A stretch of DNA of 64,000 nucleotides from Octopus vulgaris (taxonomy: Eukaryota): NCBI GenBank assembly GCA_951406725.2, contig OX597833.1, positions 43,958,001 through 44,022,000 on the forward strand, written 5' to 3'. Within the stretch, counting starts at the first letter, position 1. The number at the start of each line of letters is the position of its first letter. Under the pieces are notes generated by a model. It saw nothing but the letters and a program-made list of their open reading frames with translations, was not told the DNA's origin and searched no databases. Shown in pieces: positions 900 to 60,722 of this stretch. The position numbers and the translations under genes were made by a program.

Positions 900-1510
900 A
901 CTAGGTTTCTAATTACAGGTTTCTTATCATTCTCGGCCAATAGAGAGGTCTTCCCCTCTACAATGATGCTTTGGCCAGGAGCGGGTTTACTGAGAAGCTC
1001 ACGTATGTTGATGACCCCCAAACACTCTCAGTATTAGGAGAAGGAGAACTATATGGTATAATCCCCTTTCAACCTAGACGACTCCACCAACGTAGCTAGG
1101 GGCTTTCTGTCATTAATTAAAAAGTACTTCCCCAGAGGCCATAAGTATTACAAACTATTCAACCCCCATAATGTCATGGTGAGCTACTCTTACTTAGACA
1201 ACATCGCATCTAAAATCGCACGCATCAACAGACGTAAACATACACCCACACTACCCCAATCCCCAACCTGCAACTTCCGAAACACCACAATATACCCTCT
1301 AGAAGGCTCTTGTTTTTCAAGGGCCGTAGTATACAGAGCCACCCTTACACCATCCGATGGCATTACTATATGGGTATGACAGCTAATGATTTCAAAGGTA
1401 GATACTCCCAGCATATGCACTTGTTCAGATCCAGGGATAGAGAGAACTCTACTTACCTGTCTCGTTTTCTCTGGGGACTCCGTGATCTCCGAGATGAATA
1501 CCAACTACTA
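900..1510 (+). mobile_element. Penelope-like retroelement fragment (RT thumb to GIY-YIG endonuclease), frameshifted
   Basis: Translates as IWYNPPFN...FLSLIKKYFPRGHKYYKLFNPHNVMVSYSYLDNI, then CNFRN...PLEGSC...VVYRATL and, after a frameshift, YYMGMTANDFKGRYSQH. These are typical Penelope-like element motifs. Confidence 0.85.
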
Positions 1511-3397: not shown

Positions 3398-3708
3398 TTA
3401 TATATATATATATGTATATATATATATGCATTTATATACTTGGATACATAGATAGATACATATCTTTTATTTATGTATATACATAAATATACATTTATTT
3501 ATAGATATTTCTCTCTCTCGCTCTCTTGCTCACTCACTCTTCCTCTCTCCCTCTCTCTCTCTCTCTCTCTCCCTCTATATATATATAGACATACACACAC
3601 ACACACACATATATATACATAAAAACACATAAAATAAGAATGAAAAACACGTTAATGACAATTATCAGGTAGTCAGCATGGAAAAAAGCAATTTATATAT
3701 TAAATTAG

Positions 3709-3739
<31 letters not shown>

Positions 3740-3740
<1 letters not shown>

Positions 3741-4245
3741 CTAGCAGTATCGCCCGGCGTTGCTCGGGTTTGTAAGGGAAATAACTATATAAGCATTTTT
3801 AGAGAGTTACTTCCCTTATAGATGCCAATTCGGGCTTTCTTAGCCATTTCTGTTTTGGTGTCTTCAAACCATGAAGTCGTTGTTCTAAAAGAACGCTGGT
3901 CTCCTTGACAACGCATTACGACGTTGATTTCTTTACACTCCCTTCCCCACAGCTTCACGAGGGAGGGAAGGGGGAGAAGCAAACAGGTGCAGCTGTGAGC
4001 GTGGACGCCAACTCCGCCGCCATCGACACACGAAAAATTATGCATTAAAATGGAATAAAAAATGATGTTAAATTATTTTTAAAATCGTAGACTCATTGTT
4101 GACGCGCGCTAATAGCCAGACGGGCTCGATATGAATCACGACTATAAGATACCCGAATTTGGTTAAACTGCACCGCAAAATGTGGGAGGAGTTAGGAATC
4201 TAAATCGAAGGGGACATACACTCACACAACTAGAGTTTTATATAT
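3740..4245 (-). mobile_element. Non-autonomous Helitron-like element (same family as 16568-16945)
   Basis: Shares ctagcagtatcgcccggcgttgctcgggtttgtaagggaaataactata and the ggttaaactgca...gttaggaatctaaatcg blocks with 16568-16945. Confidence 0.7.
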
Positions 4246-4749
4246 ATATATATATATATATATACCTATTTCAAGGGAGAAAGTCAAAACAAGACTTATC
4301 ACCTCCATATTGAATTAATGTCCAAACATTACGAATCTACCGAAACGACTCCATAAATACATGCGATTGAAAGCGGGCTAGTGAGAGGATATTTAAAAAG
4401 ACACCACATCAATTGCAAATTAGCTAATTTCGAGATTAATATCTTAAAATCTTATGGAGTTTTTACGGTAACTTCGTAATGCTTAGACATCAATTCAGTA
4501 TGTACCCGAACTCTGTCATGTAGTCCCGTTCCGGTTTCGCCATATAGTACTCTTTACATTGTCGACAAGTTGTACAGTAAATTAAGTGTTTTGTTTTACA
4601 ATTCATGTTTGCATTGATTTTGAAAAGCACATTGCTTTTAAAAGAAATTTGTCCACCATCTTCAATGTATTCACAGGTTCCGCATCGAGGGTGCCTGCAG
4701 TTTTTAACTTACATTGTTTCAATGTTAGATGTTAATTTCACCTTCACTC

Positions 4750-4976
4750 TTTTACTCTTTTACTTGTTTCAGTCATTTGATTGCGGCCATGCTGCAGCAC
4801 CGCCTTTATTCGAGCAAATCGACCCCCAGGACTTATTCTTTGTCAGTCTAGTACTTATTCTATCGGTCCCTTTGCCGAACCGCAATGTTACGGGGACATA
4901 AACACACCAGCATCGGTTGTCAAGCGATGTTTGGGGTGGGGGTAGACAAATACAGACACACAAACACACACACACG

Positions 4977-5018
<42 letters not shown>

Positions 5019-5110
5019 CATATACGGTCTTCTTTCAGTTTCCGTCTACTAAATCCACTCACAAGGCTTTGGTTGGCCCGAGGCTATAGTAGAAGACACG
5101 TGCCCAAGGT
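4750..5110 (-). mobile_element. tRNA-derived SINE family B (CORE-like), 5' truncated
   Basis: Reverse complement of the 19079-19460 element. Confidence 0.85.
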
Positions 5111-5151
5111 GTTAGTTGAAGGCTACCAAACCTGCCATACACAGACAACTT

Positions 5152-5191
<40 letters not shown>

Positions 5192-5201
5192 CATACATAC
5201 A

Positions 5202-5232
<31 letters not shown>

Positions 5233-5725
5233 CTATACATATAAAACTCAACTTGTGTGTCTGTGTGTATATCTGTGTGTGTCTGTGTGTTTAACTTCCC
5301 GGCACATCTCCTAACTAACAAATCGTAGAACCACCAAAAGTGGGTCACTTAAAGTTTAGGCGAATGAAAATTGAACTGCGCTATTTCCGTTCCGAAATTC
5401 ATTTCGCAAGTGCAAAAATCGATAATGTGTTTGTTATCCCATGCATTGAATAGTGAACTTTACTCAGTCAGCTGTTTGACGTGAACTGTGTTCACCACGC
5501 GTGCAAGCATGCGTAAATTACATGAAAAATAAAAAATCAATATATAAAAACGAATCGCCGTAAACATTGTAGAAATTCGGCAAAGAAATGAATTTTCGGG
5601 ATGTAGCCTGGAGGGTTTTTCGTATTAATCGTTTTGACTTTGTGAACACATACCAATTGTTTTCATTAAATTTTTAATGCTTTGAATTAAATGTGACCAT
5701 TTTGCAAAGCCGGGCAATAATGCTA

Positions 5726-5726
<1 letters not shown>
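5233..5726 (+). mobile_element. Helitron-like non-autonomous element
   Basis: Starts TCTATACATATAAAA followed by a (GT)-rich tract and ends gcaaagccgggcaataatgCTAG-T. Confidence 0.55.
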
Positions 5727-5823
<97 letters not shown>

Positions 5824-5837
5824 ACTCTTTTACACTT

Positions 5838-6215
5838 TATACTCTTTTACTTGTTTCAGTCATTTGACTGCGGCCATGCTGGAGCACCGCCTTTAGTCGA
5901 GCAAATCGACCCCGGGACTTATTCTTTGTAAGCCCAGTACTTATTCTATCGGTCTCTTTTGCCGAACCGCTAGGTGACGGGGACGTAAACACACCAGCAT
6001 CGGTTGTCAAGCAATGCTAGGCGGACAAACACAGACACACAAACATATACACATACATATATATACATATATACGACAGGTTTCTTTCAGTTTCCGTCTA
6101 CCAAATCCACTCACAAGGCATTGGTCGGCCCGGGGCTATAGCAGAAGACATTTGCTCAAGATGCCACGCAGTGGGACTGAACCCGGAACCATGTGGTTGG
6201 TTCACTCCCGCGCCT
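5838..6215 (-). mobile_element. tRNA-derived SINE family B (CORE-like)
   Basis: Near-complete reverse copy of 19079-19460. Confidence 0.88.
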
Positions 6216-6729
6216 ATATATACATATATATATGTATATATACATATTTATAAAAGAACGATATTATTTCTGAAAATAATAACGTTAGTGGCCGCGAGCG
6301 TAAAGACATATAGGCAAATTAATAATCATGTATATAAGATATATAAATATATTCATTTTTCTGATATAATTATTAATTAGGGATCGTTTAATTTGTCTCA
6401 CAGATTTTTTAATTATTTTTTTTAAGCAAACACTTTGAAATTTTGTATACTGGTGGAATTTCTCACCTAGAACACGGTCTACATTGAACATTTTTGGCAA
6501 TATTTTGTATTTCAGAAGATATTTCGTGTTTGAGTTGTCGGATTTTGGGTAATTTTTGCCAATCAACGACGTGTATTCAGTTGAAGAAAGCTACTGCTGT
6601 TTGCGATAGTCATCGAAGAGGAACAGCTTTCGGGTTATCTCTATTAAATTTAACCACTCTGTTCTGTTTGTATGTCGAGCGATGTATGTAGATATATGTA
6701 GATGTATGCACATTATACATGTGCATATG

Positions 6730-6772
<43 letters not shown>

Positions 6773-6860
6773 AGAGTTCAGGAAAAAAAACAAAAGACGA
6801 AGATGGGTGGTGTACAAAACAAACAGATGTATTAGCATAACGTTCAGGAATTGAAAAAGT

Positions 6861-6896
6861 CTTTTACGTTTCGAGCCTACGCTCTTCTACAGAAAG
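6861..6896 (-). ncRNA. Minimal type-I hammerhead-like motif, family C (core CUGUAGAA)
   Basis: Minus strand: cttt-CTGTAGAA-GAGC gtag GCTC-GAAA-cg-TA-aaag. Stem I 4 bp, stem II 4 bp, palindromic ACGT stem III. Lies in a dispersed repeat also at 31403, 36549, 54817 and (decayed) ~50670. Confidence 0.55.
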
Positions 6897-6969
6897 GAAC
6901 ACAGAAAGAGACGAGGAGAGAAAAAATTGTGTGTAGTGGCTACCGAATGTGCGTGTGTGTGTATGTGTA

Positions 6970-7024
<55 letters not shown>

Positions 7025-7906
7025 CATAAGCATATATACATATATATAACATATGCATATATACATATAAATAATATAAATTTCTATTTGAAATATATAT
7101 TTTATATAGATAGATTGAAAGATATGTGTGTGTGTTTGTGTCGTCGCGCGCGCGTATAATTTTTTTGGCACAATGAGAATATGACAATTATTGTGTAGGA
7201 TGAAACGCATTCATATTTGGTCTCATCCACATTTGGTATATATATTTACCCTGGATCAACATCAAGAAATTCCGCTGCGTACACACACGCACGCAGCCGT
7301 TCTAGAATTTGGACCTTGAGATCTCCATTTCCAGCGACTTCGAGGGCCACCTCCCAGTGGTGTCGGGCGTCAACGAAGAGCCCTCGACTACAACAAAACG
7401 ACCAAAGTTTTTCTTTTTCCAAGGTCTGGGGTCTCCCGCCCCTAAGCCCTAGACCATCACCTAGTCACCCTTACCCGTCTTGTTGCTTAACAACAACAAC
7501 AACAAACACGCACGCATACACACACACATACACACATACACACACAAACACATACGCACAAATGTACACGGGTGCCGTAAATTAAAATCATAGAATCACA
7601 CACCTGTATGAATTGGATGCCCAACTTTCCCTGTTAACTTAAATGTAATCTTTCTTCGACGGGTTCTACTCTCTATATTTTATGATTAAGAGTTTAATTT
7701 TTTATTATATATTCGCGGACAACCGTGGCTATCCCCATTAGCTCGTTATAACCAAAATACATTGAGCATGAACAACTTGACTGGAAGAACTCAGTATATC
7801 TAGAGTGACATCATCTTTTTTATGCATGTACTTTGATGTATCACAAAAGGCACAGTTTGATGGAACACAACTAGATGCACAAAATCCTACCTATAAGAGA
7901 CAGTTG

Positions 7907-8341
7907 GGATCTTTTCGGTTTGAACGGCAGTTTTTAAATTTTTTTCCACGTAACTAAACACTTTTAAACTTCGTATACTGGTAGAATGTGTTTATAAAAC
8001 ATCTTTTTCTCTTGGCTTTATTGCGAAAATTATATAGTTTGTAAGATATTTGTTGTTGTTTTTTCTTCAATTTCTGCAACTTCAACCAATCGATGACATC
8101 TATTAAGGTAAAAAACATTCTGTGCCGTATGAATATGTCCCTCGTTTAAGAAACAGATTGGGTTTATTTACATTTGTTAACAAAAAAAAGATAACCTTCC
8201 CCCCACCCTTAACACTAACCCTAACTAACACTAACCCCAAAACAGATTGAAATGCAATAGATCGATACTAGGATCATAATTATGGGTGACAATTTCATAT
8301 GACATCGCTAGAAAAAACTGCCGTTGAAACCGAAAAGATCC
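7907..8341 (+). mobile_element. MITE with GGATCTTTTCGGTTTGAACGGCAGTTTT TIRs and 8-bp TSD (Merlin- or hAT-like)
   Basis: TIRs at both ends, perfect flanking duplication GACAGTTG (7899-7906 and 8342-8349), internal CCCTAA-like repeats. Confidence 0.9.
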
Positions 8342-8408
8342 GACAGTTGCAGAATGGTTGTCGAAATGATCGTCACACTTGTGATAAATCTATCTTCCGT
8401 TTCCTTCA

Positions 8409-8472
<64 letters not shown>

Positions 8473-8705
8473 CACATGCATATATATGGGAATATGTATG
8501 TATGTATGTCGAAGAAAGAGAAAGAGCCGGTTTCTAACCTAGATCTAAGGCTCCTTCATTGGAATTTCAACATCGACAACAGGAAGTTTTTGTATGTATG
8601 TATCTATGTGTGAATGTGCATATGCAGATTTGTTTGTTTTGCTTTATGTATTATTCTAATGCATATAGTTGCATATCTAGACATGCTCATATGTATATAT
8701 ATATC

Positions 8706-8929
8706 TCTTTACTACCCACAAGGGGCCACAGAGAGGACAAACATGGGCAGACAAACGGATTAAGTCGATTATATCGACCCCAGTGCGTAACTGGTACTTA
8801 ATTTATCGACCCCGAAAGGATGAAAGGCAAAGTCGACCTCGGCGGAATTTGAACTCAGAACGTAGCGGCAGACGAAATACCGCTAAGCATTTCGTCCGGC
8901 GTGCTAACGTTTCTGCCAGCTCGCCGCCT
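8706..8929 (-). mobile_element. tRNA-derived SINE family A (MetaSINE-like domain)
   Basis: Minus strand: ggcggcgagctggcagaa head, B-box-like gagttcaaattcc, then gtcgactttgcctttcatcctttcggggtcgataaa. There are more than eight copies in the window. Confidence 0.88.
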
Positions 8930-9136
8930 TATATGTATATATATATATATATATGTATGCATATGTATATATATATGTATGTATGCATGCAAGCATGTAT
9001 GTGTGTGTATATGTGTGTGTATGTGCACGCGTGCGTACGTATAGTGCGTCTTGTGACGATCAAAGTGTGATATCTATGACAAGAAGGTTCAATGTTGTAA
9101 TTGAAGAAAATATTATTCCTCTTGATATTAACTTAC

Positions 9137-11140: not shown

Positions 11141-11721
11141 TAAATTCTTTCATAAATCTAAATGTAAGCTCCCCTCTACAAATAGTACCCGCATACATAC
11201 CCCTATGTTCATTAACGCATACCCCTTCTATATCTCTATAACACTTATTTCTATCTTATGTCTTACCTCATATCTATCTATCGTACCTCATCACACTATA
11301 AGATAAATATTAATTCTTTGATTTATCCTGAATTTATTTTAAACCTTAACCCCAAAAATAACTCTACAGCCACAGACCTTAGCCAGGACGGACACAAGCA
11401 ATTACTACCGAATTTCCTCCCCAACAACTTTAGACTTTGAAACTACCAGACTACTCTCTTTAAATTCCTTTTATTTCGCTCTATTTTTTTACCCTATTTT
11501 CTTTTACTCTATCTTCCTCTACCTCCTTATCCTCTCTCTTAACTTCTTGGCTACCCCTTACACAATTCTTAGACATATACACTTTACTTTATCATATAGC
11601 CAATCCTTAAAATCTTCCCTACTTCACTCTGTTATTGTTATTGGATGTATTCCACTGAAACTAGGTAAATATAAGCCTTCGAACAGAGACGTCAGTGGCG
11701 ACACCTGCGGGGTCTGACTGC

Positions 11722-11763
11722 GCTACATTGACAAGGGGCAATACTCCGAAACGCGTCTGTAGC
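11722..11763 (+). ncRNA. Type-I hammerhead ribozyme motif with U3-A8 core variant
   Basis: GCTACA-TTGACAA-GGGG caata CTCC-GAAA-cgcg-TC-TGTAGC. Perfect 6-bp stem I, 4-bp stem II, palindromic ACGCGT stem III, GUC cleavage triplet. Lies downstream of a Penelope-like 3' end. Confidence 0.72.
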
Positions 11764-12144
11764 TGTCGGACTGGCAGTGTGAAGCGTCTGACCTCCCTTG
11801 TTCGAAGGTTATAATGGATACAGATCGTGTATCAATAGCTATCTTAAGGCGGTGGCCTCATGGAGCTGACCAGCGGCAGCGATTATTCTCATATCTATAA
11901 GAATGCCATATTAATATGGCGATAACAATTAATTTCCAGTAAACGCTGTCGTAATCTCTTTTATAGAGACTTAGTAATTTTAATATTTCTAATATATATA
12001 TATATATATATACATATATATACACATATATATAGATAGATACATACATACATATATGCACACGTATATACATATATGTACATGTATTTATAAAGATTTT
12101 ATATGTGTGTATATGTAGATATTTATGCATACATATATATATGC

Positions 12145-18937: not shown

Positions 18938-18972
18938 CGTTCGATTAGTACCCTTCTCTAGTGATACGTGAT

Positions 18973-19019
18973 ACACACAGATCCGGATTTCTGGGTGGTT
19001 ACTCGTCTTCAGTGTGTGT
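18973..19019 (-). ncRNA. Type-I hammerhead ribozyme motif, retrozyme-like family (second copy)
   Basis: Near-identical to 20121-20167, with one stem II mismatch (cgagt vs cgggt). Confidence 0.65.
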
Positions 19020-19078
19020 CAATCACTGGCTAGTGATGAAGAACTCATTCCACTCGCAAAATACTATATCCTGTGTAT

Positions 19079-19460
19079 AGGCGCAGGAGTGGCTGTGTGG
19101 TAAGTAGCTTGCTAACCAACCACATGGTTCCGGGTTCAGTCCCACTGCGTGGCATCTTGGGCAAGTGTCTTCTGCTATAGCCCCGGGCCGACCAATGCCT
19201 TGTGAGTGGATTTGGTAGACGGAAACTGAAAGAAGCCTGTCGTATATATGTATATATATATATGTGTGTGTGTGTTTGTGTATCTGTGTTTGTCCCCCTA
19301 GCATTGCTTGACAACCGATGCTGGTGTGTTTACGTCCCCGTCACTTAGCGGTTCGGCAAAACAGACCGATAGAATAAGTCCTGGGGTCGATTTGCTCGAC
19401 TAAAGGCGGTGCTCCAGCATGGCCGCAGTCAAATGACTGAAACAAGTAAAAGAGTAAAAA
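19079..19460 (+). mobile_element. Full-length tRNA-derived SINE family B (CORE-like)
   Basis: Head ggcgcaggagtggctgtgtggtaag...gggttcagtccc, CORE-like cttgggcaagtgtctt, internal (TA)/(TG) microsatellite, tail aaaagagtaaaa. Confidence 0.9.
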
Positions 19461-19843: not shown

Positions 19844-19896
19844 CTGAAAAAACATTTTTTAACATACTGGTTAACAGAAAATTTTACAGAAAATAA

Positions 19897-20450
19897 AGGG
19901 AGATATAAGTTATATTAAATCTCTGAGAGAGATGAACACTAACAGAACGGAATAGTCAATATATATTTGCCAACTTAATGTGGCGGTCCTATAGAGAACA
20001 GTGTTCCTATTGTTTTTAGACCCAGGAAAATATCTCCTCCTGCTGACCAACAACACATAGTCTGTGTTCGATTAGTATTTGCGAGAGTGGTCATCGCCCC
20101 CTTCTCTAGTGATACGTGATACACACAGATCCGGATTTCTGGGTGGTTACCCGTCTTCAGTGTGTGTCAATCACTGGCTAGTGATGAAGAACTCATTCCA
20201 CTCGCAAAATACTATATCCTTTTTCTAGCGACACAGTGTCGCTGATTTCGTGAAGAGAGAGATAAGTTATATTAAATCTCTGAGCGAGTGATAAACAGTA
20301 ACAGTCCGGAATGGTAAAATATATTTGCTAACTGAATGTGGCGGTCCTATAGAGGACGGTGTTACTGTTGTTCTTAACCCCAGGAAGAAATCTCCTCCAG
20401 CTGGCCAAGGACACACAATCTTTGTCTGATTACTATTTGCGAGGGGAAAT
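19897..20450 (-). mobile_element. ~1.5 tandem units of a ~358-bp hammerhead-containing repeat (non-LTR retrozyme-like)
   Basis: 19899-20088 is repeated at 20257-20447, and the hammerhead at 20121-20167 lies within the unit. Other copies at 18938-19072 and 29870-30352. Confidence 0.72.
20121..20167 (-). ncRNA. Type-I hammerhead ribozyme motif with canonical core
   Basis: Minus strand: ACACACA-CTGAAGA-c GGGT aacc ACCC a-GAAA-tccgga-TC-TGTGTGT. 7-bp stem I, palindromic ATCCGGAT stem III, AUC cleavage site. Confidence 0.8.
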
Positions 20451-25972: not shown

Positions 25973-26798
25973 GGATCTTTTCGGTTTGAACGGCAGTTTT
26001 TAACATAATTTCTAGGTAACTAAAAAATTTTAAACCTCGTATACTCGTAGAATGTGTTTATAAAACATCATTTTCTCTTGGCTTTCTTGAGAAAATTCTG
26101 TAGTTTGTAACATATTTCGTCTTTAATTTCTTGCCTTTCGGCAATTTTAACCAATCAATGATATCTATTGAGGTAAAAAGCATTCTGTGTCGTATGAATA
26201 TGTCCCTCCTTTAAGAAACAGATTGGGCTTATTTACATTTGTGAATAAAAAAAGATACCCTTCCCCCACCCCTAACCTTAACCCTAACCCTAACTAACCC
26301 TTAATCGAAAATAGATTGAAATGCAATAGATCGATACTAGGGTCATAATTATGAGTGACAATTTCATATGACACCGCTAGAAAAACTGCCATTTTCTCTA
26401 GCGGTGTCATATGAAATTGTCACCCATAATTATGTTCCTAGAATCGATCTATTGCATTTCAATCTATTTTAGATTTAGGATTAGTTAGGGTTAGGGTTAG
26501 AGGTGAGGGAAGGGTATCTTTTTTCTTCACAAATCTAAGTAAACCCAATCTGTTTCTTAAAGGAGGGACATATTCATTATGCACAGAATGTTATTTACCT
26601 AAATAGAGGTCAGCGATTGGTTAAAATTGCCGGAATGCTCGAAATTAAAGATGAAATATCTTACAAACTATAGAATTTTCTCAAGAAAGCCAAGAGAAAA
26701 TGATGTTTTATAAACACATTCTACCAGTATACGAAGTTTAAAACTTTTTAGTTACCTAGAAATTATGTTACAAAGTGCCGTTCAAAAGGAAAAGATCC
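25973..26798. mobile_element. Tail-to-tail inverted dimer of the GGATC-TIR MITE (~825-bp quasi-palindrome)
   Basis: Forward copy 25973-26390 and reverse copy 26391-26798, with both inner TIRs truncated. Further MITE fragments follow to ~26990. Confidence 0.85.
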
Positions 26799-29869: not shown

Positions 29870-30352
29870 GTATATTTGCCACCTAAATGTGCCTAACCCA
29901 TAAGGGTCGATGCTACTGTAGCTTGTAGCCCTAGGAAGACATGTCCAGCTGGTTATTGACACACTATTTGTGCTCTATCAGTATTTGCAAAGGGAAATCA
30001 TCGTTCCCCACTTCTTCGTGTGTATCACTACTGTTTATACCTCGATCAGAGATTTATTATTGCTGGTTTCTACTGTTTGGAGATCAGAGACTTTTCGTCA
30101 CTGGAAAAAGTATATATATTTGCATTGAGAACCACTTCCCATCACCAACCGGTGATTGTCACACACTGATGACGGGTCAATAATCAGAAACCCGGGTCCG
30201 TGTGTATCACGTCAGGCTTGAGATGGGAAAGATGACTTCCCTTTGCAAATACTGATAGGGAACAGATCTTGTCTCAATAGCCAGCTGGAGGAGATGACTA
30301 CCTGGAGCTACATTGACCCTTATGGGTTATCCACATTTAGGTGGCAAATATA
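29870..30352. mobile_element. Inverted-dimer copy of the hammerhead repeat family
   Basis: ~140-bp terminal inverted arms (gtatatttgccacctaaatgtg ... cacatttaggtggcaaatatac). 30030-30352 is a diverged reverse complement of the 19960-20300 unit. Confidence 0.75.
30160..30204 (+). ncRNA. Type-I hammerhead ribozyme motif (retrozyme-like family, diverged copy)
   Basis: cacaca-CTGATGA-cgggtcaataatca-GAAA-cccggg-TC-cgtgtg. The stem III palindrome ACCCGGGT is a double compensatory change relative to ATCCGGAT at 20121. Confidence 0.7.
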
Positions 30353-45320: not shown

Positions 45321-46362
45321 TGTAATAAATAAAAATATATGCATATATACAAACATATATGTACGTACCGACATCTACATGTATATATACGTGCATATAT
45401 AAATATATATACGTGAGTACAGGACACCACAACTAGACGGGGAAGGTAAAGCAAAGGGAGAGAATTTTGCGTCATAATTATATCATAAAACAATACTGGG
45501 GGGAAAAAAGAGACGGAACGAAGCGAAAATTCGAAAATTCGAACGAACCACGACGCAAAGCGCTGTCAGACAATAGTGTAATAAATAAAAATATATGCAT
45601 ACATACAAACATATATGCACGTACCGACATCTACATGTATATATACATGCATATAATAATGTTTTCCTGTTTTCGTTTCGTCTCTGTTTTTTTTTTTTGT
45701 TGTAAAAAAATGGCTTGTCCGTTTTCGTCTTTCGCTGAATTCTACGTCTAGTTGTGGTGTCCTGTACTCACGTATATATATTTATATATACGTGAGTACA
45801 GGACACCAGAACAAAGGCCTTAGTTTAGTTTGTTTTCTTGTTATTTTGATATCTCGTATTGTATTTTATCTCTCGTTTTGTATTTTCTTGTACATGTATT
45901 TTTAATTTTGTATTTTTATCTTGTATTTTATTGTGCAGTTCTATTCTTACGTCCCGTTTGTGTTACATTTTTTTCGTGCTTCTTTTACCCCTCTGCGAGG
46001 TTATTTTATTTTAATTCTTTCGCAAGAAGGCCTAGTTATTGACGAGTCATATCCGGTCTTGCCTTCGAAACACGCTTGAGTCTGCTAGTGACAGCTGATG
46101 ATTGGGGATTTTTTCCTTTTGTGGTGTGTCCTGTACCTTGTTTTTCTGTTGTAAAAAATAATGTTTTCCCGTTTTCGTTTCGTCTCTGTTCTTTTTGTTG
46201 TAAAAAAATTGCTTGTCCGTTTTCCTTTTTCGTTGAGTTCTACGTCTAGTTGTGGTGTCCTGTACTCACGTATATATATTTATATATGCATGTATATATA
46301 CATGTAGATGTCGGTACGTACATATATATTTGTATGTATGCATATATTTTTATTTATTACAT
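45321..46362. repeat. Complex nested inverted and direct repeat insertion
   Basis: 45321-45438 is the reverse complement of 46243-46362; direct partial copy at 45577-45655; 45656-45780 duplicates 46158-46275; hairpin at 45755-45808. Confidence 0.85.
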
Positions 46363-46420: not shown

Positions 46421-47719
46421 CATACATTCATACATACATTCATGTATATCATATATAGAAAGAGAGAGACAGGTTTATATATAGATATAATGGTTGATAC
46501 ATCTATACATTAGTATATATGCATGCATATCTATGCATTTATTTATCGAAATATTTCTGCCTCACTCACTCTCTTTCTCTCTCTCTCTCTCACTCTCTCT
46601 CTAGGAGTCACTGTAAGACGCTTAATTCCCAGCCGTATAGCTGTGAAGCAAGTGTCTTAAAATATTAGAATTATTGTCATTTGCCTTTTCTGAACAGCCC
46701 TACAACATGATAGAATACTGCTCATAGAGACAAAATATAAAAAACTTTAAATATTTTTATCAAATAATCTTGTTGTTAAAATAATTTATTCAAAAATGGA
46801 CTTTAAAAAGCCACACTACAAAAAGTTAAGCAAAAAAATTCATTTTTTATAAAAAGTAATTTATACTAAAGAAAATAAATAGAACATTTTGTATTGATTT
46901 GTGTTGTCGTTTGTCTTTTGTTGTGTGTGCAACTAAGAAATAGTTTAGTTCATACATGTCTAGTCCCTTTAATATCACGCAAAAATTGATACAAATTTGA
47001 GAATTAAAATTAATAACTTTTTTCTAATGGATAACATCTTACGAAACCTTTACCAATATATTCCTTTAACATTTCCTTTCATATTAATATCAATATAATA
47101 ATTCTTGATCAAAATTAAAAGAATGGTGTGGATTCAAAATGCCGATGTCGGGCTTTCTTACCCGTCAGTCAACCAGTTTGGTCTATACACTTTTTCTCTT
47201 TTGTTCTACTGCACCAGATTTTAAGTATTTTATGTCTAAATGTAGCTTATCACAAGTCAAACATGATTTTAAAAAACTAAATTTGATTTGGATTAAAACT
47301 GAATTAGTGAGACTACTTGGAAGACGCCAACTGCAACAAAAAGCTACGTTAAGAATATTATTCAACTACTACCGTAGTGTACACATTAGTTTTTATGTGT
47401 ATATACAAGTTCGAAAGAACATATGATGATATATGCTACATTTTATAGGGTCTACAGGAAACATTCATATACGCAAAATTGTTCAAAATTATATATAATT
47501 ATATATAATAATTGTTCTAATTTATTTATTCGTACTAATATAAACTTTTGTCTTAGTAAATAAGAAAGTAACACAAATTTACTTGGTTTATCAGAGGAGA
47601 ATAGCATCATTAATCAATGTTTATTATATATTGATTGAAATGGTTCTTTTTCTTAGTTTGATTTATAATAATATATTTGTATATTATTTAAGTAATATTA
47701 ATACATTTTTTCGCTGGTC

Positions 47720-48590
47720 TCAATGGAGAAATTACCGATTCACTTATCTTTAAAAGACTTTCCTATTCCACCTAGAAAAGATTTCATGAAGGATCTAATT
47801 AATAAGACTTTTGAATTCATTCATAGAATCCGTTGGGTGGCTTTTTACCAAGATAAGGATTTTATAAAAGAAAATAAACCTCATAAAGAAGATACTGAAC
47901 TTTTTAAAAAGAACTTTCAGACAAAGAAATTTACACCACCAAACCTCAATTTGGAGGCTTTTGAAGACAATTTATGGAATATTGTCAAGAATATTAAATT
48001 TGTTAAATATTCCCTCTGGGAAATTGAACGTTTAAAGAAACTAAATTCTCTACTATGTGATCTTAAAAGAAAAAAATGGAATTATGGAGCAATGAAACTT
48101 ATATGATTAGGATCTATTAAAATATCATGAATAAATGAAGAAAGAGATTACTAGTCATTATAAAGTAGTAAGTAAAAAGTTTTAAGGTTCATTAACTTAG
48201 AAGCTAAGAAAATTATGAATGACAAGGACCTTGGTGATAGAACAGAGAGTTTTGTGTCTATGAGGCCTAGGAAAACTTTAAAAGATCATAAGGAAAACAA
48301 CTTTTTTAACTCTAAAGTGAGAATAATTTTCCCAGGCTGATCTGACCTGAGTACATTAAGTAAAGTTTTTCTTCATATGTGTATACGTAAGAAAAACATA
48401 TACGCAAAAATCTATTATTTTATTTGATAATAAGTCATGGGCTAGAGAAAGTAGCAATGATTTTTTGACATTACCATGGGATCTGCGGTTTCTGATCTAT
48501 ACATTCTATTTTATTTTAGTAATAAATTTCCAGATATTAAAGGTGGACTGTATAGAGATGATGTGCTGTTTTTGAATAATAGTGACACCT
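47720..48590 (+). mobile_element. Penelope-like element ORF, 5' part, degenerate
   Basis: SLKDFPIPPRKDFMKDLINKTFEFIHRIRWVAFY N-terminus, then TLKDHKENNF, ITMGS and GLYRDD (RT YxDD) remnants. Confidence 0.8.
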
Positions 48591-54950: not shown

Positions 54951-54993
<43 letters not shown>

Positions 54994-54995
<2 letters not shown>

Positions 54996-55070
54996 GAATT
55001 AGAGATAAAACCACTATTAGGCAACTCAAACTGTTTGAGTTGCCTAATAGTGGTTTTATCTCTAATTCAT
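54994..55070. repeat. Perfect hairpin (38-bp arms, 1-nt loop)
   Basis: atgaattagagataaaaccactattaggcaactcaaac-t-gtttgagttgcctaatagtggttttatctctaattcat. Confidence 0.95.
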
Positions 55071-55149
55071 ATTTTATATATTTATACTGTGAAATTTGAT
55101 TTAATCCTGAATCTAATTTTTCCCTGTAAGTTTGGAGCAATACTCCCTA

Positions 55150-55310: not shown

Positions 55311-55365
<55 letters not shown>

Positions 55366-55368
<3 letters not shown>

Positions 55369-55665
55369 AATTGCAGCGTGGAAGGTGTTTATAAGCCATT
55401 TAAGAAACACACAAAAGCCGTTCGATTCACTCCAACATTTAAGTTTAATTTGTCAAAATATTTTCGTCGCTAAAATCCGCGACCTGTTCATTGACAAAGT
55501 CCGTGCTGCATCTCATGAGATGCAGCACGGACTTTGTCAGTGAACAGGTCCCGGATTTTAGCGACGAAAATATTTTGACAAATTAAACTTAAATGTTGGA
55601 GTGAATCGAACGGCTTTTGTGTGTTTCTTAATTGGCTTATAAACACCTTCCACGCTGCAATTGTT
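55366..55665. repeat. 300-bp spacerless palindrome (3 mismatches), each arm carrying a hammerhead-like motif
   Basis: Centre tctca|tgaga at 55515/55516. Hammerhead-like motifs at 55533-55582 (+) and 55449-55498 (-). Confidence 0.95.
55533..55582 (+). ncRNA. Type-I hammerhead motif with swapped G3-C8 core
   Basis: TTTGTCA-GTGAACA-g GTC(C/G)C ggatttta GCGAC-GAAA-atat-TT-TGACAAA. 7-bp stem I, palindromic AATATT stem III. Confidence 0.6.
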
Positions 55666-55723
55666 ATCGTTTCAGCACACGATCTCAGATCAAATTACTT
55701 GCTATGCGAGTACATCTCCGTAA

Positions 55724-55817
<94 letters not shown>

Positions 55818-55837
55818 CAGGTACCAGAATCTAGTAA

Positions 55838-55980
55838 GGTATTATCCATATAAATCAAATGGGGCGATTATAATCACCCTATTTGATTTATATGGATAAT
55901 ACCTTCCATCTTATGCGCTTAATCAGGTCTGTAATTTTCTCTAAAAGTTTCTTAGAGTATAGTTCCCTTAATGGTGTGTG
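55838..55980 (-). mobile_element. Penelope-like ORF start fragment with terminal hairpin
   Basis: PLRELYSKKLLEKITDLIKRIRWK resembles the 47723 ORF. It abuts a hairpin at 55840-55900 whose arm recurs at ~49870-49907. Confidence 0.55.
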
Positions 55981-56575: not shown

Positions 56576-59500
56576 TCGCAGGTCACTTTCGAGTGCTACT
56601 GGTAACATGTAACCCAGTACAACCTGTTGCATGGTCGGGTCCTCGGCGACTAAACCGGCAAACCCACAAGTGAGGAGGGTGTTTATTGGACACTTTGCGG
56701 GATGAAAAACAAAACCTGTCAAAGGGCGGAGGACCTCTTGAGAGTCAACGGCCATCCAATAAATGTTAGCACGGGTACGTAAAAATTCGGGGTGGTGTCC
56801 GGTGTGCTGGAAGACCACTGGGAGTGAGGCGCCCCTCAGCTTTTGTTAAAGCACGTCTCTAGGAGAAGGTCACTCTGATATAAAAACCAGATATGCAGGG
56901 AATGGCATTGAACATTTTGGGGATCTTTGGTTTGTGCTAGAGATCACGGCGCTCTCACATCCCTGTGCTTGCGACTCATATTGGCACCAGACATCTTGCT
57001 CCGGCTTGTCTCTGGATAATGTCAATAGAGTTGAGAGGGTCTATGAGGTGTTGTGAAAGCCTTATTGGACCTAAAACTCTGCACAGGCATTGCCAAATTT
57101 TTTTATATATATCTTATTTTTAGTATATATTTTCTTCATTTTTAGTAATTTTTTTTCAGAAGTCCTGCGGCGATGGGAAGGTGGTGAAGCATGCAGACCT
57201 GACGGGTTGGAAGCATGTAGTCAGCGACCTGCACGTAGGTGGCCCATGCTAGATATAAAGTCGTCTCCTTGTCGCCCAAGACAGCGGTAAGATTCGGTTG
57301 CTGCATGGGTGTCTGAGCAGCTCCATTTGGAGAGGGCACTGCTCACCTGGAGACCGGGGAGGTTCTAGAAAAGGTGAACCAAAAATTGCCTGTCTTTCCA
57401 TATCTGGTCAGTTTAGCGTGACTGATGGATGCCCACTCTGCGCTCGAAAAACAAGGAGTCTTTTATCTATAAAATCTGGACGGAACTTAAACATTTCATG
57501 TTGGAATGTGCGTACTCTGTTGGACAACAAGAGTGATTGCAGGCCTGAAAGACGCACTGCACTTGTTGCTCGTGAGCTGAACCGTTATAAAATTGATATA
57601 GCTGCACTCTCAGAGACTCGTATAGAAGGTGATGGTCAGCTTGAGGAAGTAGGAGGCGGATACACCTTTTTTTTGGAAAGGAAGGCAGAAGGAGAAGTGC
57701 AGAGAGGCTGGTGTTGGATTTACAGTCCGATCTGATATCCTGAAGAAGTTGGAAGAGCTCCCTGTCCCTATAGATGAACGTATAATGACCCTACGGTTGC
57801 ACTTGAAAGGTAAGCGGTTTGCTACTCTAATAAATGCCTATGCACCTACTTTGACTAGCTGTGATGAAGATAAAATAATCTTTTATACCCAGCTGAGAGC
57901 CATACTTAGAAAAATCCCCAATTCTGATAAAGTCATTCTACTGGGGGATTTTAATGCCAGAGTAGGAACATACTGGAAAACATGGAACTCTCTAGGACGT
58001 TTTGGAGTAGGGAAAATGAATAGCAATGGTCTCATGCTACTGGAGCTTTGCGAAGAACATGGCCTTTACATTGCAAGTACTCATTTTGTGCACAAAGGTG
58101 ATCACACAACAACATGGATGCTTCCAAGGTCCAAAGTTTGGCATTTGCTGTATTACGTCATCATCCGCAAGCGCGATATTTATGACATTTGTAATGTCAA
58201 GTCATTGCATGGATCAGAATGCTGGACAGACCACAGTCTGTTGCGAGCAAAGTTCCGAATGGTGATTAGGGCGAAAGAGAGAAGAGGACCAGTCAGCATT
58301 CCTCGCCGTCTAAATGTCCAAAAGGTATATGACGTTGTGGTTAGGAAAGAGCTTCAGACTCGCTTGTCCAGCATTGAAACTGCTGCAGCATGGGAAGAGT
58401 TTCGAGACCAAGTTGTTCAATGTGCAGCCGAGACACTAGGGTATGTTACTGCCAGACACAGACTGGTTTGATGAGAATGATGCTGAAATTCAACGACTAT
58501 TAGTGGTGAAGCACCATGCCCACAGTGTGTTGCTGCACAGAGAACTGTCTACTGTGCAGCGAAGTCTAGCACTTGCCCACTATAACAGTGTAAAATCACT
58601 ACTGCAGCGATCTCTCAGGAAGATCCAGAACACTTGGTGGGAGGATCTTGCTCGTGATGTTCAGGCTGGTGCTGATGCAAATGACAGCAAAAAGCTTTAC
58701 CATCTTATGAAGCGAGCTTATGGACCTAAGATCTCCTCATCAGCTCCTTTTCTTTCCAAGGAGTCTTCCACTCTGTTTAATAAATCAATAGAAATCACAG
58801 GTCGCTGGATCGAACACTTCTCTGAACTCCTAATTCATGAGTCAGTTGTGGATGAAACAGTGATTGATACTATGAAACAAAGACCTATCATTGACTCCTT
58901 AGACTCCTCGCCATCAATACATGAAATAATGACATCAATAAGTAAATTAAATCTTGGTAGGGCACCTGGAAAGGATGGAATTTGTGCTGAGGTCTTGCGA
59001 TTTGGTGGTAATTGCATCACACAGTCCCTTCATGAACTTATTAGTGCAGTCTGGAGGGATGGTGCAATCCCTAAGGACTGGAAGGATGCAATTATTCTTC
59101 CTCTATATAAAGGAAAGGAGCCAGAACAATGTGTGGTAACTACAAAGGTATTGCTCTACTATCAGCTGCTGGCAAGGTTCTAGCAAATATTCTTCTTACC
59201 CGTCTGAATGGGTTTCTCGTAAATGATGTCCTATCTGAATCTCAATGTGGCTTCCGATCTGGTAGAGGGACAATGGATATGATTTTCACAGCAAGACAGA
59301 TGCAGGAGAAGTGCTATGAGCAGAATATGGATCTTGTCCAGGTATTCATTGATTTGACAAAGGCCTTTGATACTGTAAATAGGGCCTTTCTATGGAAAAT
59401 ACTTGGATGTCCGGATCACTTTGTATCTATAATTAAAGCATTTCATGGTGGGATGGAGGCTTGGGTCAATGTTGGTGGTGCCATGGCGGGACCCATTCCT

Positions 59501-60722
59501 GTAGAGAATGGTGTCAAGCAGGGTGACATCCTTGCCCCAACTCTCTTTTCTTTGTACTTTGCTGCTGTTTTTACTCATGCTTTTGCTAAGGTTAACTCTC
59601 TGGGAATATATGTCAGATATCGATCTTCTGGCCGCCTCTTTAATCTTCGCCGATTTGCTGCCAATTCAAAGGTGTCCCAGTCTATTATTCGTGACCTCCT
59701 TTATGCAGATGACTGTGACTTAGTCACTCATACAGTGGATGACATGCAAATACTCATGAATTGCATTTCTGCTTCTTGCAGGGCATTTGGACTCAGCATT
59801 AGCCTGGACAAGACTGTTGTAATGTTCCAGCCTGCACCAGGAAATCCATATATAGAACCAGCTATCTTGGTTGAAGGAACAATTCTGAAGGTAGTAGACA
59901 AGTTTGTCTACCTGGGCAGCACACTCAGCCGTTCTTGCTCCCTGGATGAGGAAATATCTTTCAGGTTGCAGAGAGCAACTAATTCCTTCCGGTCTCTTCA
60001 GTCTCGTATCTGGTCGCAACATGGCATCGCAAGGAGAACAAAAGTTGCTGTGTACCGTGCTTGTGTACTGACATCGCTTCTCTACTCATGTGAGACATGG
60101 ACTCTGTACAAACGTCAGTTAAGGGTTCTTGAACGTTTTCATCAGAGATGTCTCAGACACATTCTCAATGTTGGCTGGACCTAAAAAATTCCGGACACAC
60201 AGATCTTGAGGACAGCTGATATCTTGAGTATTGAGGCGATGGTACACAAGCACCGGTTTGGGTTGGACTGGATACCTTATTAGAATGGAGGATAGAAGGA
60301 TTCCTAAGCAGATGCTCTATGGAGAACTTGTGAATGGAAGGAGACTCCGGCAGAAACCAAGGCTGCGATTGAAGGACTGTGTCAAGTACTCGTTAAAGGC
60401 CTTTGATATGCAGGACACTGACAGGGAGAACAATGCCTGTCATCGCCACAGATGGAGGAAACAGGTTAAGGAGGGGATCGACACTTTCGAGAAAGCACGT
60501 ATCCAGCATGAAGAACTTAAGCGAGCTGCGCGAGAGCGCACGGCTCGTATAATGAATGGGGAAAGCTTGGTCTGCAATGTTTGCAGTCGTGTATGCTTGT
60601 CAAGAGCAGGGCTCATTAGCCACCAACGGAGCCGCAAATGCAAAATATAAGTTAGTCCTAGAGCGCACAATGTTCCTGAAGGTCAGCAATGGTCTTCCTC
60701 GGTCACAAGTGGACGGCTATCA
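56576..60722 (+). mobile_element. Near-full-length RTE-clade LINE (APE + RT + C-terminal C2H2-like), inactivated by frameshifts and stops
   Basis: APE: SCWNVRTLLD, IDIAALSETR, NAYAPT, LLGDFNARVG, WTDHSL. RT: ESQCGFR, FIDLTKAFDTV, GVKQGDILAPTLF, LLYADDC, FVYLGS. C-terminus CNVCSRVCLSRAGLISHQR and an (ATGT)n tail. Split over ORFs 57298, 57749, 58443, 59129 and 60231. Confidence 0.95.

What the first reader, a model, noticed from the sequence alone, without database searches (positions are those of the whole stretch)
55366..55665. Spacerless 300-bp palindrome carrying hammerheads with a swapped G3-C8 core
Each arm has full type-I hammerhead topology (7-bp stem I, GUCGC/GCGAC stem II, GAAA, palindromic AAUAUU stem III) with core GUGAACA, i.e. 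the C3-G8 pair inverted to G3-C8. Two of the three arm mismatches lie in the motif: one copy has a stem II mismatch and the other has A3. Together with canonical C3-G8 (20121) and U3-A8 (11722), three of the four possible Watson-Crick pairs at 3-8 occur in one 64-kb window. This suggests a large, under-counted repertoire of variant ribozymes in this genome.
Basis: partly seen in the sequence, partly recalled or inferred. Interest (0 to 1): 0.7.

Follow-up and report, generated by a model that had tools for sequence, protein, structure and literature searches.

The report
Octopus repeat with swapped hammerhead core
Two copies of a very abundant short octopus repeat sit head to head, likely left by a Penelope-type jumping element, and the repeat family carries a hammerhead-like RNA motif whose paired core letters are swapped (G3-C8 instead of C3-G8), which would be a natural variant not found in the papers I could search, though self-cutting is untested and both copies here are damaged.

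Summary
The palindrome is real: two 150-bp arms, no spacer, 3 mismatches. It is a head-to-head pair of a ~150/200-nt Octopus repeat inserted in (TA)n, with a 54-nt tail on one side only. This is the published signature of Penelope-like element (PLE) insertions, but I found no linked RT gene. Each arm holds a minimal type-I hammerhead layout. Neither arm is intact (A3 in one, broken stem II in the other), and a read-through RNA folds as one 150-bp hairpin, so this locus is predicted dead. The family is the interesting part: 3,550-9,026 contigs per run in 4 of 4 runs, four organism labels. Stem II is intact in ~98% of depth, and a second loop-II subfamily reads G3...C8 in all four runs. I found natural U3-A8 in print but G3-C8 only as a lab rescue mutant; one key paper (Lünse 2017) was unreadable. 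The scan noted G3-C8 earlier in phages and protist PLEs (unchecked). Cleavage untested; probably slow, dimeric, protein-assisted. Verdict: new variant of a known kind, interest 0.42.

The parts
55316..55365 (.). (TA)n microsatellite, left flank; likely insertion target
   Evidence: ends 1 nt from the arm
55366..55515 (-). Left arm: inverted copy of the repeat, ending at the family's first 3' terminus, no tail
   Evidence: family terminus at 55664-55667 going into TATATA in 4 of 4 runs (table 7)
55449..55498 (-). Hammerhead layout, left copy: intact stem II, but A3 (55491) opposite C8, so the 3-8 pair is lost
   Evidence: fold z -3.64
55509..55522 (.). Head-to-head junction at the family's apparent 5' boundary (about 55517)
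   Evidence: depth falls from about 2e5 to about 3e2 across it in X1; other contigs cross it with 1-10 letters left out or 2-3 put in (table 4, 4 of 4 runs)
55516..55665 (+). Right arm: sense copy of the repeat
55533..55582 (+). Hammerhead layout, right copy: stem I 55533-39/55576-82, G3 55540, C8 55545, A9, extra G 55547, stem II 55548-52/55561-65 with a private G>C at 55551, GAA 55566-68, palindromic AAUAUU 55569-74, U17 55575; predicted cut after 55575
   Evidence: family letter at 55551 is G in 97.9-98.4% of depth
55666..55719 (+). 54-nt tail on one side only, up to the second 3' terminus
   Evidence: table 7: loose ends behind 55719 (31 contigs, X1 only among the 24 of 769 rows shown); depth continues through the tail in 4 of 4 runs
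55724..55812 (.). (TA)n microsatellite, right flank

Best explanation
This is a head-to-head double insertion, in a (TA)n tract, of a short high-copy octopus repeat that is likely the 3' end (pseudo-LTR) or a non-autonomous derivative of a Penelope-like retroelement, and the family's minimal hammerhead motif has a G3-C8 core that is predicted to self-cleave slowly as a dimer in the source RNA, while this damaged palindromic copy is predicted to be inactive. How it likely arose (inferred): a PLE RT/GIY-YIG protein supplied in trans cut both strands of (TA)n. Each end primed reverse transcription, one at the inner start site (55665, no tail) and one at the outer site (about 55719, with tail). 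Both cDNAs ran to the same 5' boundary (about 55517) and were joined. Three later point mutations hit the arms. In the master RNA, G3 pairs with C8 so that the 2'-OH of residue 8 can still serve as general acid (established chemistry; the swap is a partial rescue in vitro). Stem III would form only between two RNAs through AAUAUU, probably helped by the PLE protein, with cleavage after U17. Shown: anatomy, family abundance, two 3' ends, recurrent junctions, family letters. Inferred: PLE identity, insertion route, cleavage.
For: Anatomy above chance. Host is Octopus vulgaris by a named protein with 100% identity over the aligned part of a window exon. Family: 9026, 8207, 5709 and 3550 contigs laid in 4 of 4 runs, organisms A-D. 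Stem II is repaired in 97.9-98.4% of depth. No other letter at >=2% is listed at 55567-55577 (A13-A14, AAUAUU, U17, first stem I pairs), and the one listed stem I change, 55578 A>G (4-13%), keeps a G.U pair. The loose-end consensus before 55560 reads G3-U-G-A-A-C8-A-G then GUCGC with a different loop II in all four runs (62, 48, 47, 50 contigs; agreement 0.75-0.83). Both arms share the minority letter G at 55599 (family A in 90.8-99.6%), so both come from one source. PLE signatures in print: inverted 5'-truncated copy, tail at one end, (TA)n target (PMC8557442, passages and part of the supplement); two adjacent RT start sites define the tail, both target strands are cut and extended, the hammerhead needs protein, and C3G/G8C partly rescues (PMC11167929, parts 1-2 of 4); min-HHRs have an extra nucleotide at 9/10.1, palindromic 15.2-16.2, and occur as opposite-strand pairs 100-700 bp apart (PMC4209133). 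A G3-C8 mutant works better without C17 (PMC3884650 passage, 'data not shown'); this family has U17.
Against: No RT or endonuclease ORF is linked to the repeat; no genome was held. Four words of the repeat gave 0 matches in the Craig supplement, which holds three Octopus PLE consensuses. The absence of table-3 rows at G3 and C8 is not evidence: every listed row has a contig with >=31 letters on both sides, which those positions cannot have. The G3-C8 reading therefore rests on the window's + arm and on loose-end consensus lines with median length 13-17, so fewer than half of those contigs reach position 3; one 6-contig group reads U8. Conservation among copies of a young repeat mostly reflects the master copy, not selection. 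U17 is common anyway (24 of 56 motifs in Fig S3 of PMC4209133, my count), so it is weak support for co-adaptation. G3.U17 folds as an eighth stem I pair in the predicted structure, a possible trap. The AAUAUU self-duplex is -0.2 kcal/mol against -7.5 and -10.9 for the other two window motifs, and co-folding two copies did not pair it. The extra letter is G, while the min-HHR consensus is H. Hammerhead mutants did not impair PLE insertion in vitro. The 5' boundary looks fixed rather than variably truncated, and the tail (54 nt) is longer than the published 30-40 bp.
Confidence: 0.6

Rival explanations
1. Same retroelement origin, but the motif is a dead hammerhead: G3 and C8 were fixed in one master copy and amplified passively.
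For: Possible G3.U17 trap; very weak stem III duplex; G as the extra base departs from consensus; hammerhead cleavage is dispensable for PLE insertion in vitro; much listed variation is C>T or G>A at CpG, as in neutral decay.
Against: Two transversions that exactly restore the 3-8 pair, with U4, G5, A6, A9, G12, A13, A14, A15.1-U16.1 and G10.1-C11.1 all kept, are hard to get by drift alone (inference). Two subfamilies differ in loop II but share core and stem II (table 7).
Confidence: 0.25
2. The fold is kept as a binding or dimerisation element for the RT protein, with little or no cleavage.
For: The Anolis PLE hammerhead cleaves only with protein, and uncleaved RNA is the main substrate. The 5' decamer pairs in two halves with sequences just before each 3' terminus in both the MFE and centroid folds (both 6-bp matches together in 0.02% of 20,000 shuffles, a post hoc test).
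Against: The 207-nt unit folds no better than shuffles (z 0.16); no protein is in hand; a binding element need not keep the catalytic letters.
Confidence: 0.1
3. The unit is a DNA-transposon MITE or foldback element, or the palindrome is an assembly artefact.
For: A 6-bp inverted match joins the two ends of the 202-nt unit; the 5' boundary looks fixed.
Against: The arms differ at 3 sites; contigs cross the junction in 4 of 4 runs, several with different small deletions; many copies end at 55665 without the distal inverted match; the tail is on one side only; no target-site duplication is visible; a hammerhead layout is typical of PLEs.
Confidence: 0.05

Closest known systems
Minimal type-I hammerheads (min-HHRs) of metazoan Penelope-like elements (Cervera and de la Pena 2014, PMC4209133)
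   Same: Type-I layout, stems I and II, G10.1-C11.1, extra nucleotide at 9/10.1, palindromic 15.2-16.2, frequent U17, scattered high-copy truncated elements, opposite-strand pairs.
   Different: Core G3-C8: 0 of 56 motifs in Fig S3 have G3 (53 C3-G8, 2 U3-A8, 1 U3-G8; my count; their descriptors asked for C3-G8 or U3-A8). Extra base is G rather than H. No cephalopod is listed.
PLE insertion structure (Craig et al. 2021, PMC8557442; Frangieh et al. 2024, PMC11167929)
   Same: Inverted copy adjoining the 5' end, tail at one end only, (TA)n target, two 3' termini downstream of the hammerhead.
   Different: No ORF seen; apparently fixed 5' boundary; 54-nt tail; no word match to Naiad_Obim, Naiad_Ovul or Hydra-1_Obim; 0 of 34 rows in their hammerhead table have G3.
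Engineered C3G/G8C hammerhead double mutants (PMC11167929; review PMC8495972; PMC3884650)
   Same: Same inverted 3-8 pair; partly active in vitro.
   Different: Laboratory rescue mutants; here the pair is the natural reading of an amplified family.
Natural U3-A8 hammerheads (Perreault et al. 2011, PMC3088659; S. mansoni PLEs)
   Same: Natural compensatory change at 3-8; one such motif lies in this window at 11728.
   Different: Transition pair rather than purine-pyrimidine inversion.
Non-LTR retrozymes (PMC7229834, listing only; bioRxiv 10.64898/2026.07.22.740005, part 1 of 5)
   Same: Short non-coding unit with a type-I hammerhead, proposed PLE derivative.
   Different: Retrozymes are head-to-tail tandem arrays; this locus is head-to-head.

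Membership tests
Minimal type-I hammerhead (PLE min-HHR) | Stems I and II around a junction, G10.1-C11.1 | tested here: met
   family stem II intact in ~98% of depth; broken in the + arm itself
Minimal type-I hammerhead (PLE min-HHR) | Literal core CUGANGA | tested here: not met
   G3 and C8; no Rfam hammerhead match
Minimal type-I hammerhead (PLE min-HHR) | Watson-Crick pair between positions 3 and 8 | tested here: met
   + arm, and loose-end consensus in 4 of 4 runs; lost in the - arm (A3); share of copies not measurable
Minimal type-I hammerhead (PLE min-HHR) | GAAA, A15.1-U16.1, H17, palindromic stem III | tested here: met
   only CpG change at G12 (0.1-3.6%) listed
Minimal type-I hammerhead (PLE min-HHR) | Extra nucleotide H between 9 and 10.1 | tested here: inconclusive
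   Extra nucleotide present but G; consensus is H; G occurs there in Hydra-clade rows
Minimal type-I hammerhead (PLE min-HHR) | Self-cleavage after position 17 (as dimer) | not testable with these tools
   Needs a bench assay; the four runs laid were contigs, which cannot show RNA ends
Penelope-like element (EN+) | Linked RT plus GIY-YIG ORF | tested here: inconclusive
   None adjacent; no genome held; no true relatives in collection scans
Penelope-like element (EN+) | Inverted copy at the 5' end, optional tail, two 3' termini | tested here: met
Penelope-like element (EN+) | (TA)n insertion bias | tested here: met
   loose ends behind 55664-55667 read TATATA in 4 of 4 runs
Non-LTR retrozyme | Head-to-tail tandem units each with a hammerhead | tested here: not met
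   Head-to-head here; back-going joints exist elsewhere in the family (tables 5 and 5c), not followed up
MITE / foldback DNA transposon | Terminal inverted repeats with target-site duplication in all copies | tested here: not met
   Only a 6-bp match; many copies end at 55665 without it

The most novel reading that the evidence does not exclude
Octopus genomes hold thousands of copies of an active natural G3-C8 hammerhead, and its palindromic stem III pairs two template RNAs inside a dimeric Penelope RT complex. Both ends of a cut (TA)n target are then primed at once, and head-to-head palindromes like this one are the direct genomic footprint of ribozyme dimerisation.
Probability: 0.12. Interest if true: 0.75.

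Novelty: new variant of a known kind. Interest (0 to 1): 0.42.

Why it matters
If the family cleaves, it adds a third natural Watson-Crick solution at the catalytic 3-8 pair, in an animal and at high copy number. It would also show that descriptors fixed on CUGANGA or UUGANAA miss whole families. It gives a natural test of whether position 17 must change with position 3. The clean two-terminus, head-to-head anatomy is a compact model for how PLE inverted repeats and tails form, which is still unresolved. If inactive, it is one more decayed PLE end and of little interest.

Tried and rejected
No whole genome held, so no copy alignment, covariation count or ORF linkage. Metagenome scan: 33 loci; viral scan: 1 locus; all 34 are chance 18-mer matches with no homology beyond the seed. 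Longer patterns gave 0 in genome contigs and 0 twice in viral contigs. I first read missing rows at G3 and C8 as conservation and withdrew that (note). Rfam miRNA matches are hairpin or microsatellite noise below gathering scores. Co-folding two copies did not give an intermolecular stem III. The ORF-like frame 55579-55899 runs into microsatellite. A PLE-looking fragment at 47702-48103 got no Pfam or informative Atlas hit. Literature on natural G3-C8: searches found only laboratory mutants; searches found no octopus report of this motif. Lünse et al. 2017 (RNA Biol 14:1499) is not held and could contain such variants; subscription papers, Repbase and Dfam were not searchable. Part 3 of 3 of the Cervera supplement, 58 of 59 parts of the Craig supplement (word-searched only) and the Perreault supplementary figures were not read.

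Full report
Observation. The + arm has G3 but a C.C mismatch in stem II. The - arm has a perfect stem II but A3. With stem I >=7 and stem II >=3 the window has 2 motifs and 15 of 15 shuffles have none; with stem II >=5 and a Watson-Crick 3-8 pair required, none passes. The other two motifs are real: U3-A8 at 11728 (+) and C3-G8 with position 3 at 20160 (-). Rfam reports no hammerhead family here or anywhere in the window.

Context. The window is microsatellite-rich animal DNA. A window exon matches at 100% identity, over 65% of the query, a protein named Octopus vulgaris by its source. The palindrome is 1 nt from a (TA)n tract on the left. On the right it continues for 54 nt and then meets another (TA)n tract. 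It lies about 2.8 kb upstream of a signal-peptide-like exon of a minus-strand repeated-domain gene (52562); in the source's fused gene model it may be intronic.

The family. One lay of contigs from 4 of 24 listed runs (organisms A, B, C, D) on 55496-55722 placed 9026, 8207, 5709 and 3550 contigs. Summed depth is not a copy number, but this is a very abundant, diverged repeat. The + arm's C at 55551 is private: the family has G in 97.9-98.4% of depth, so stem II is intact. T55632 and A55666 are private too. No other letter at 2% or more is listed for 55567-55577, which covers A13, A14, AAUAUU, U17 and the first stem I pairs. G12 and C11.1 show CpG-type changes of 0.1-6.4%, and 55578 A>G (4-13%) keeps a wobble pair. 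Positions 3 and 8 cannot be judged from that table, because every listed row needs a contig with 31 or more letters on each side and the repeat begins only 23 nt upstream of position 3. The positive evidence is table 7: the consensus of loose ends before 55560 reads G3-U-G-A-A-C8-A-G, then GUCGC and a different loop II, in all four runs (62, 48, 47 and 50 contigs, agreement 0.75-0.83; median length 13-17, so only part of them reach position 3; a group of 6 contigs reads U8). So two loop-II subfamilies share the G3-C8 core. The exact share of copies remains unmeasured.

Ends and junction. Loose ends behind 55664-55667 run into TATATA in 4 of 4 runs, and 31 contigs of X1 end at 55719 (only 24 of 769 loose-end rows are shown). 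The family thus has two 3' termini, and this insertion uses one on each arm. Upstream of about 55517 the loose-end consensus dissolves into AT-rich noise and depth falls roughly a thousandfold, so the palindrome's centre is the family's apparent 5' boundary. A few contigs in every run cross the centre, several with 1-10 letters missing or 2-3 added (table 4). Head-to-head fusions have therefore formed more than once, and the junction is not an assembly artefact. Both arms carry G at 55599, where the family has A in 90.8-99.6%, so they come from one source and have since gathered three mutations.

Mechanism. Craig et al. (PMC8557442; passages; part 2 of 59 of the supplement) describe PLE insertions with an inverted 5'-truncated copy, a 30-40-bp tail often at one end only, and (TA)n targets. 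Frangieh et al. (PMC11167929, parts 1-2 of 4) show a PLE protein cutting and extending both target strands and starting reverse transcription at two adjacent sites downstream of the hammerhead, the tail being the stretch between them. I infer that both ends of a cut (TA)n tract primed cDNA on this RNA, one at each start site, and that the two cDNAs were joined at the 5' boundary. No RT gene could be tied to the repeat, so PLE membership is by anatomy only. Any transcript through this locus folds as a 150-bp hairpin (about -268 kcal/mol on either strand), only one motif is in sense on each strand, and both are mutated, so the locus itself is predicted not to cleave.

The core. The 3-8 pair positions residue 8, whose 2'-OH is the general acid; C3G partly rescues G8C (review PMC8495972, passage), also in a PLE hammerhead that cleaves only with its protein. 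A G3-C8 mutant was more active without C17 (PMC3884650, passage, 'data not shown'), and this family has U17. That support is weak, because 24 of 56 published min-HHRs have U17 anyway (my count) and G3.U17 folds as an extra stem I pair. Against strong activity: the AAUAUU duplex is -0.2 kcal/mol versus -7.5 and -10.9 for the window's other two palindromes; the extra base is G where the consensus is H; hammerhead mutants did not block insertion in vitro. For retained function: every other catalytic letter is kept, and two transversions restore the pair exactly. I put slow, dimeric, protein-assisted cleavage in the master RNA ahead of a dead relic, at about 0.6 to 0.25.

Known relatives and novelty. 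The closest kind is the PLE min-HHR (PMC4209133, parts 1-2 of 4 of the text and parts 1-2 of 3 of the supplement), which already covers the extra nucleotide, the palindromic stem III, opposite-strand pairs and U3-A8. Perreault et al. (PMC3088659, passages) report natural U3-A8. G3 occurs in 0 of 56 and 0 of 34 tabulated motifs, though those searches used descriptors that would mostly miss it. Searches found G3-C8 only as a laboratory mutant. Lünse et al. 2017 could not be read and might contain it. Also seen: PMC6765202 (passages and part 2 of section 11), PMC6155905, PMC8490949 and PMC11014351 (term searches) and a 2026 preprint on retrozymes (part 1 of 5); none of what I saw mentions natural G3-C8. 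This scan's earlier notes report G3-C8 in phages and, with an extra nucleotide, in protist PLEs. They are unchecked leads, and my one sample of phage DNA (0 of 120 loci with stems) was too small to test them.

Verdict. The palindrome is an ordinary PLE-type insertion shape and this copy is predicted dead. The family's G3-C8 minimal hammerhead is a new variant of a known kind, untested for cleavage. Interest 0.42.

Noticed in passing
window 11674-11812 (+): The U3-A8 hammerhead sits at the tip of a 139-nt rod whose two ends pair (z -4.68, 0 of 200 shuffles); C17 and a strong ACGCGU palindrome. It looks like a short non-autonomous element with a very long stem I.
   Followed up: partly
window 19896-20443, 18951-19080, 29871-30305: The C3-G8 hammerhead at 20160 (-) lies in a ~357-bp tandem unit (retrozyme-like). 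Further copies at about 18.95-19.08 kb (97%) and 30.0-30.3 kb (72%); the latter changes the 8-nt stem III palindrome on both sides and keeps it palindromic.
   Followed up: partly
window 55517-55526 with 55654-55659 and 55713-55718: The first 10 nt of the unit pair in two halves with sequences just before each of the two 3' termini; this could define the RT start sites or the fixed 5' end. Post hoc observation.
   Followed up: partly
tables 5 and 5c (family level): Run X3 has a joint from 55590 back to 55533 at depth 3227, and all four runs have 55664 back to 55560: tandem duplications of the hammerhead region may exist and would allow dimers in cis.
   Followed up: no
window 54978-55086, 55836-55905, 45755-45808, 26279-26499: Four more near-perfect palindromes with 0-7-nt spacers, two within 400 bp of the finding and next to (TA)n; one has TAACCC-like repeats at its outer ends.
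   Followed up: no
window 1062-1500 and 47702-48580: Broken frames that by eye resemble the Hydra-clade PLE protein text seen (thumb/linker and N-terminal parts); no Pfam or Atlas support.
   Followed up: partly
window 57259-60650 (+); also 39.8-40.3 kb: Frameshifted LINE with endonuclease (PF14529) and RT (PF00078) domains 1.5 kb right of the finding; a second RT fragment near 40 kb; a Tc5-type DNA-binding fragment at 29.4-29.8 kb.
   Followed up: no
window minus strand: 52562, 44683-44348, 42815-42498, 17374-17054, 16049-15741, 2379-2023: Tandem array of paralogous exons encoding alternating ~110-aa cysteine-containing domains with a signal-peptide-like start; no Pfam family above cut-off.
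   Followed up: partly
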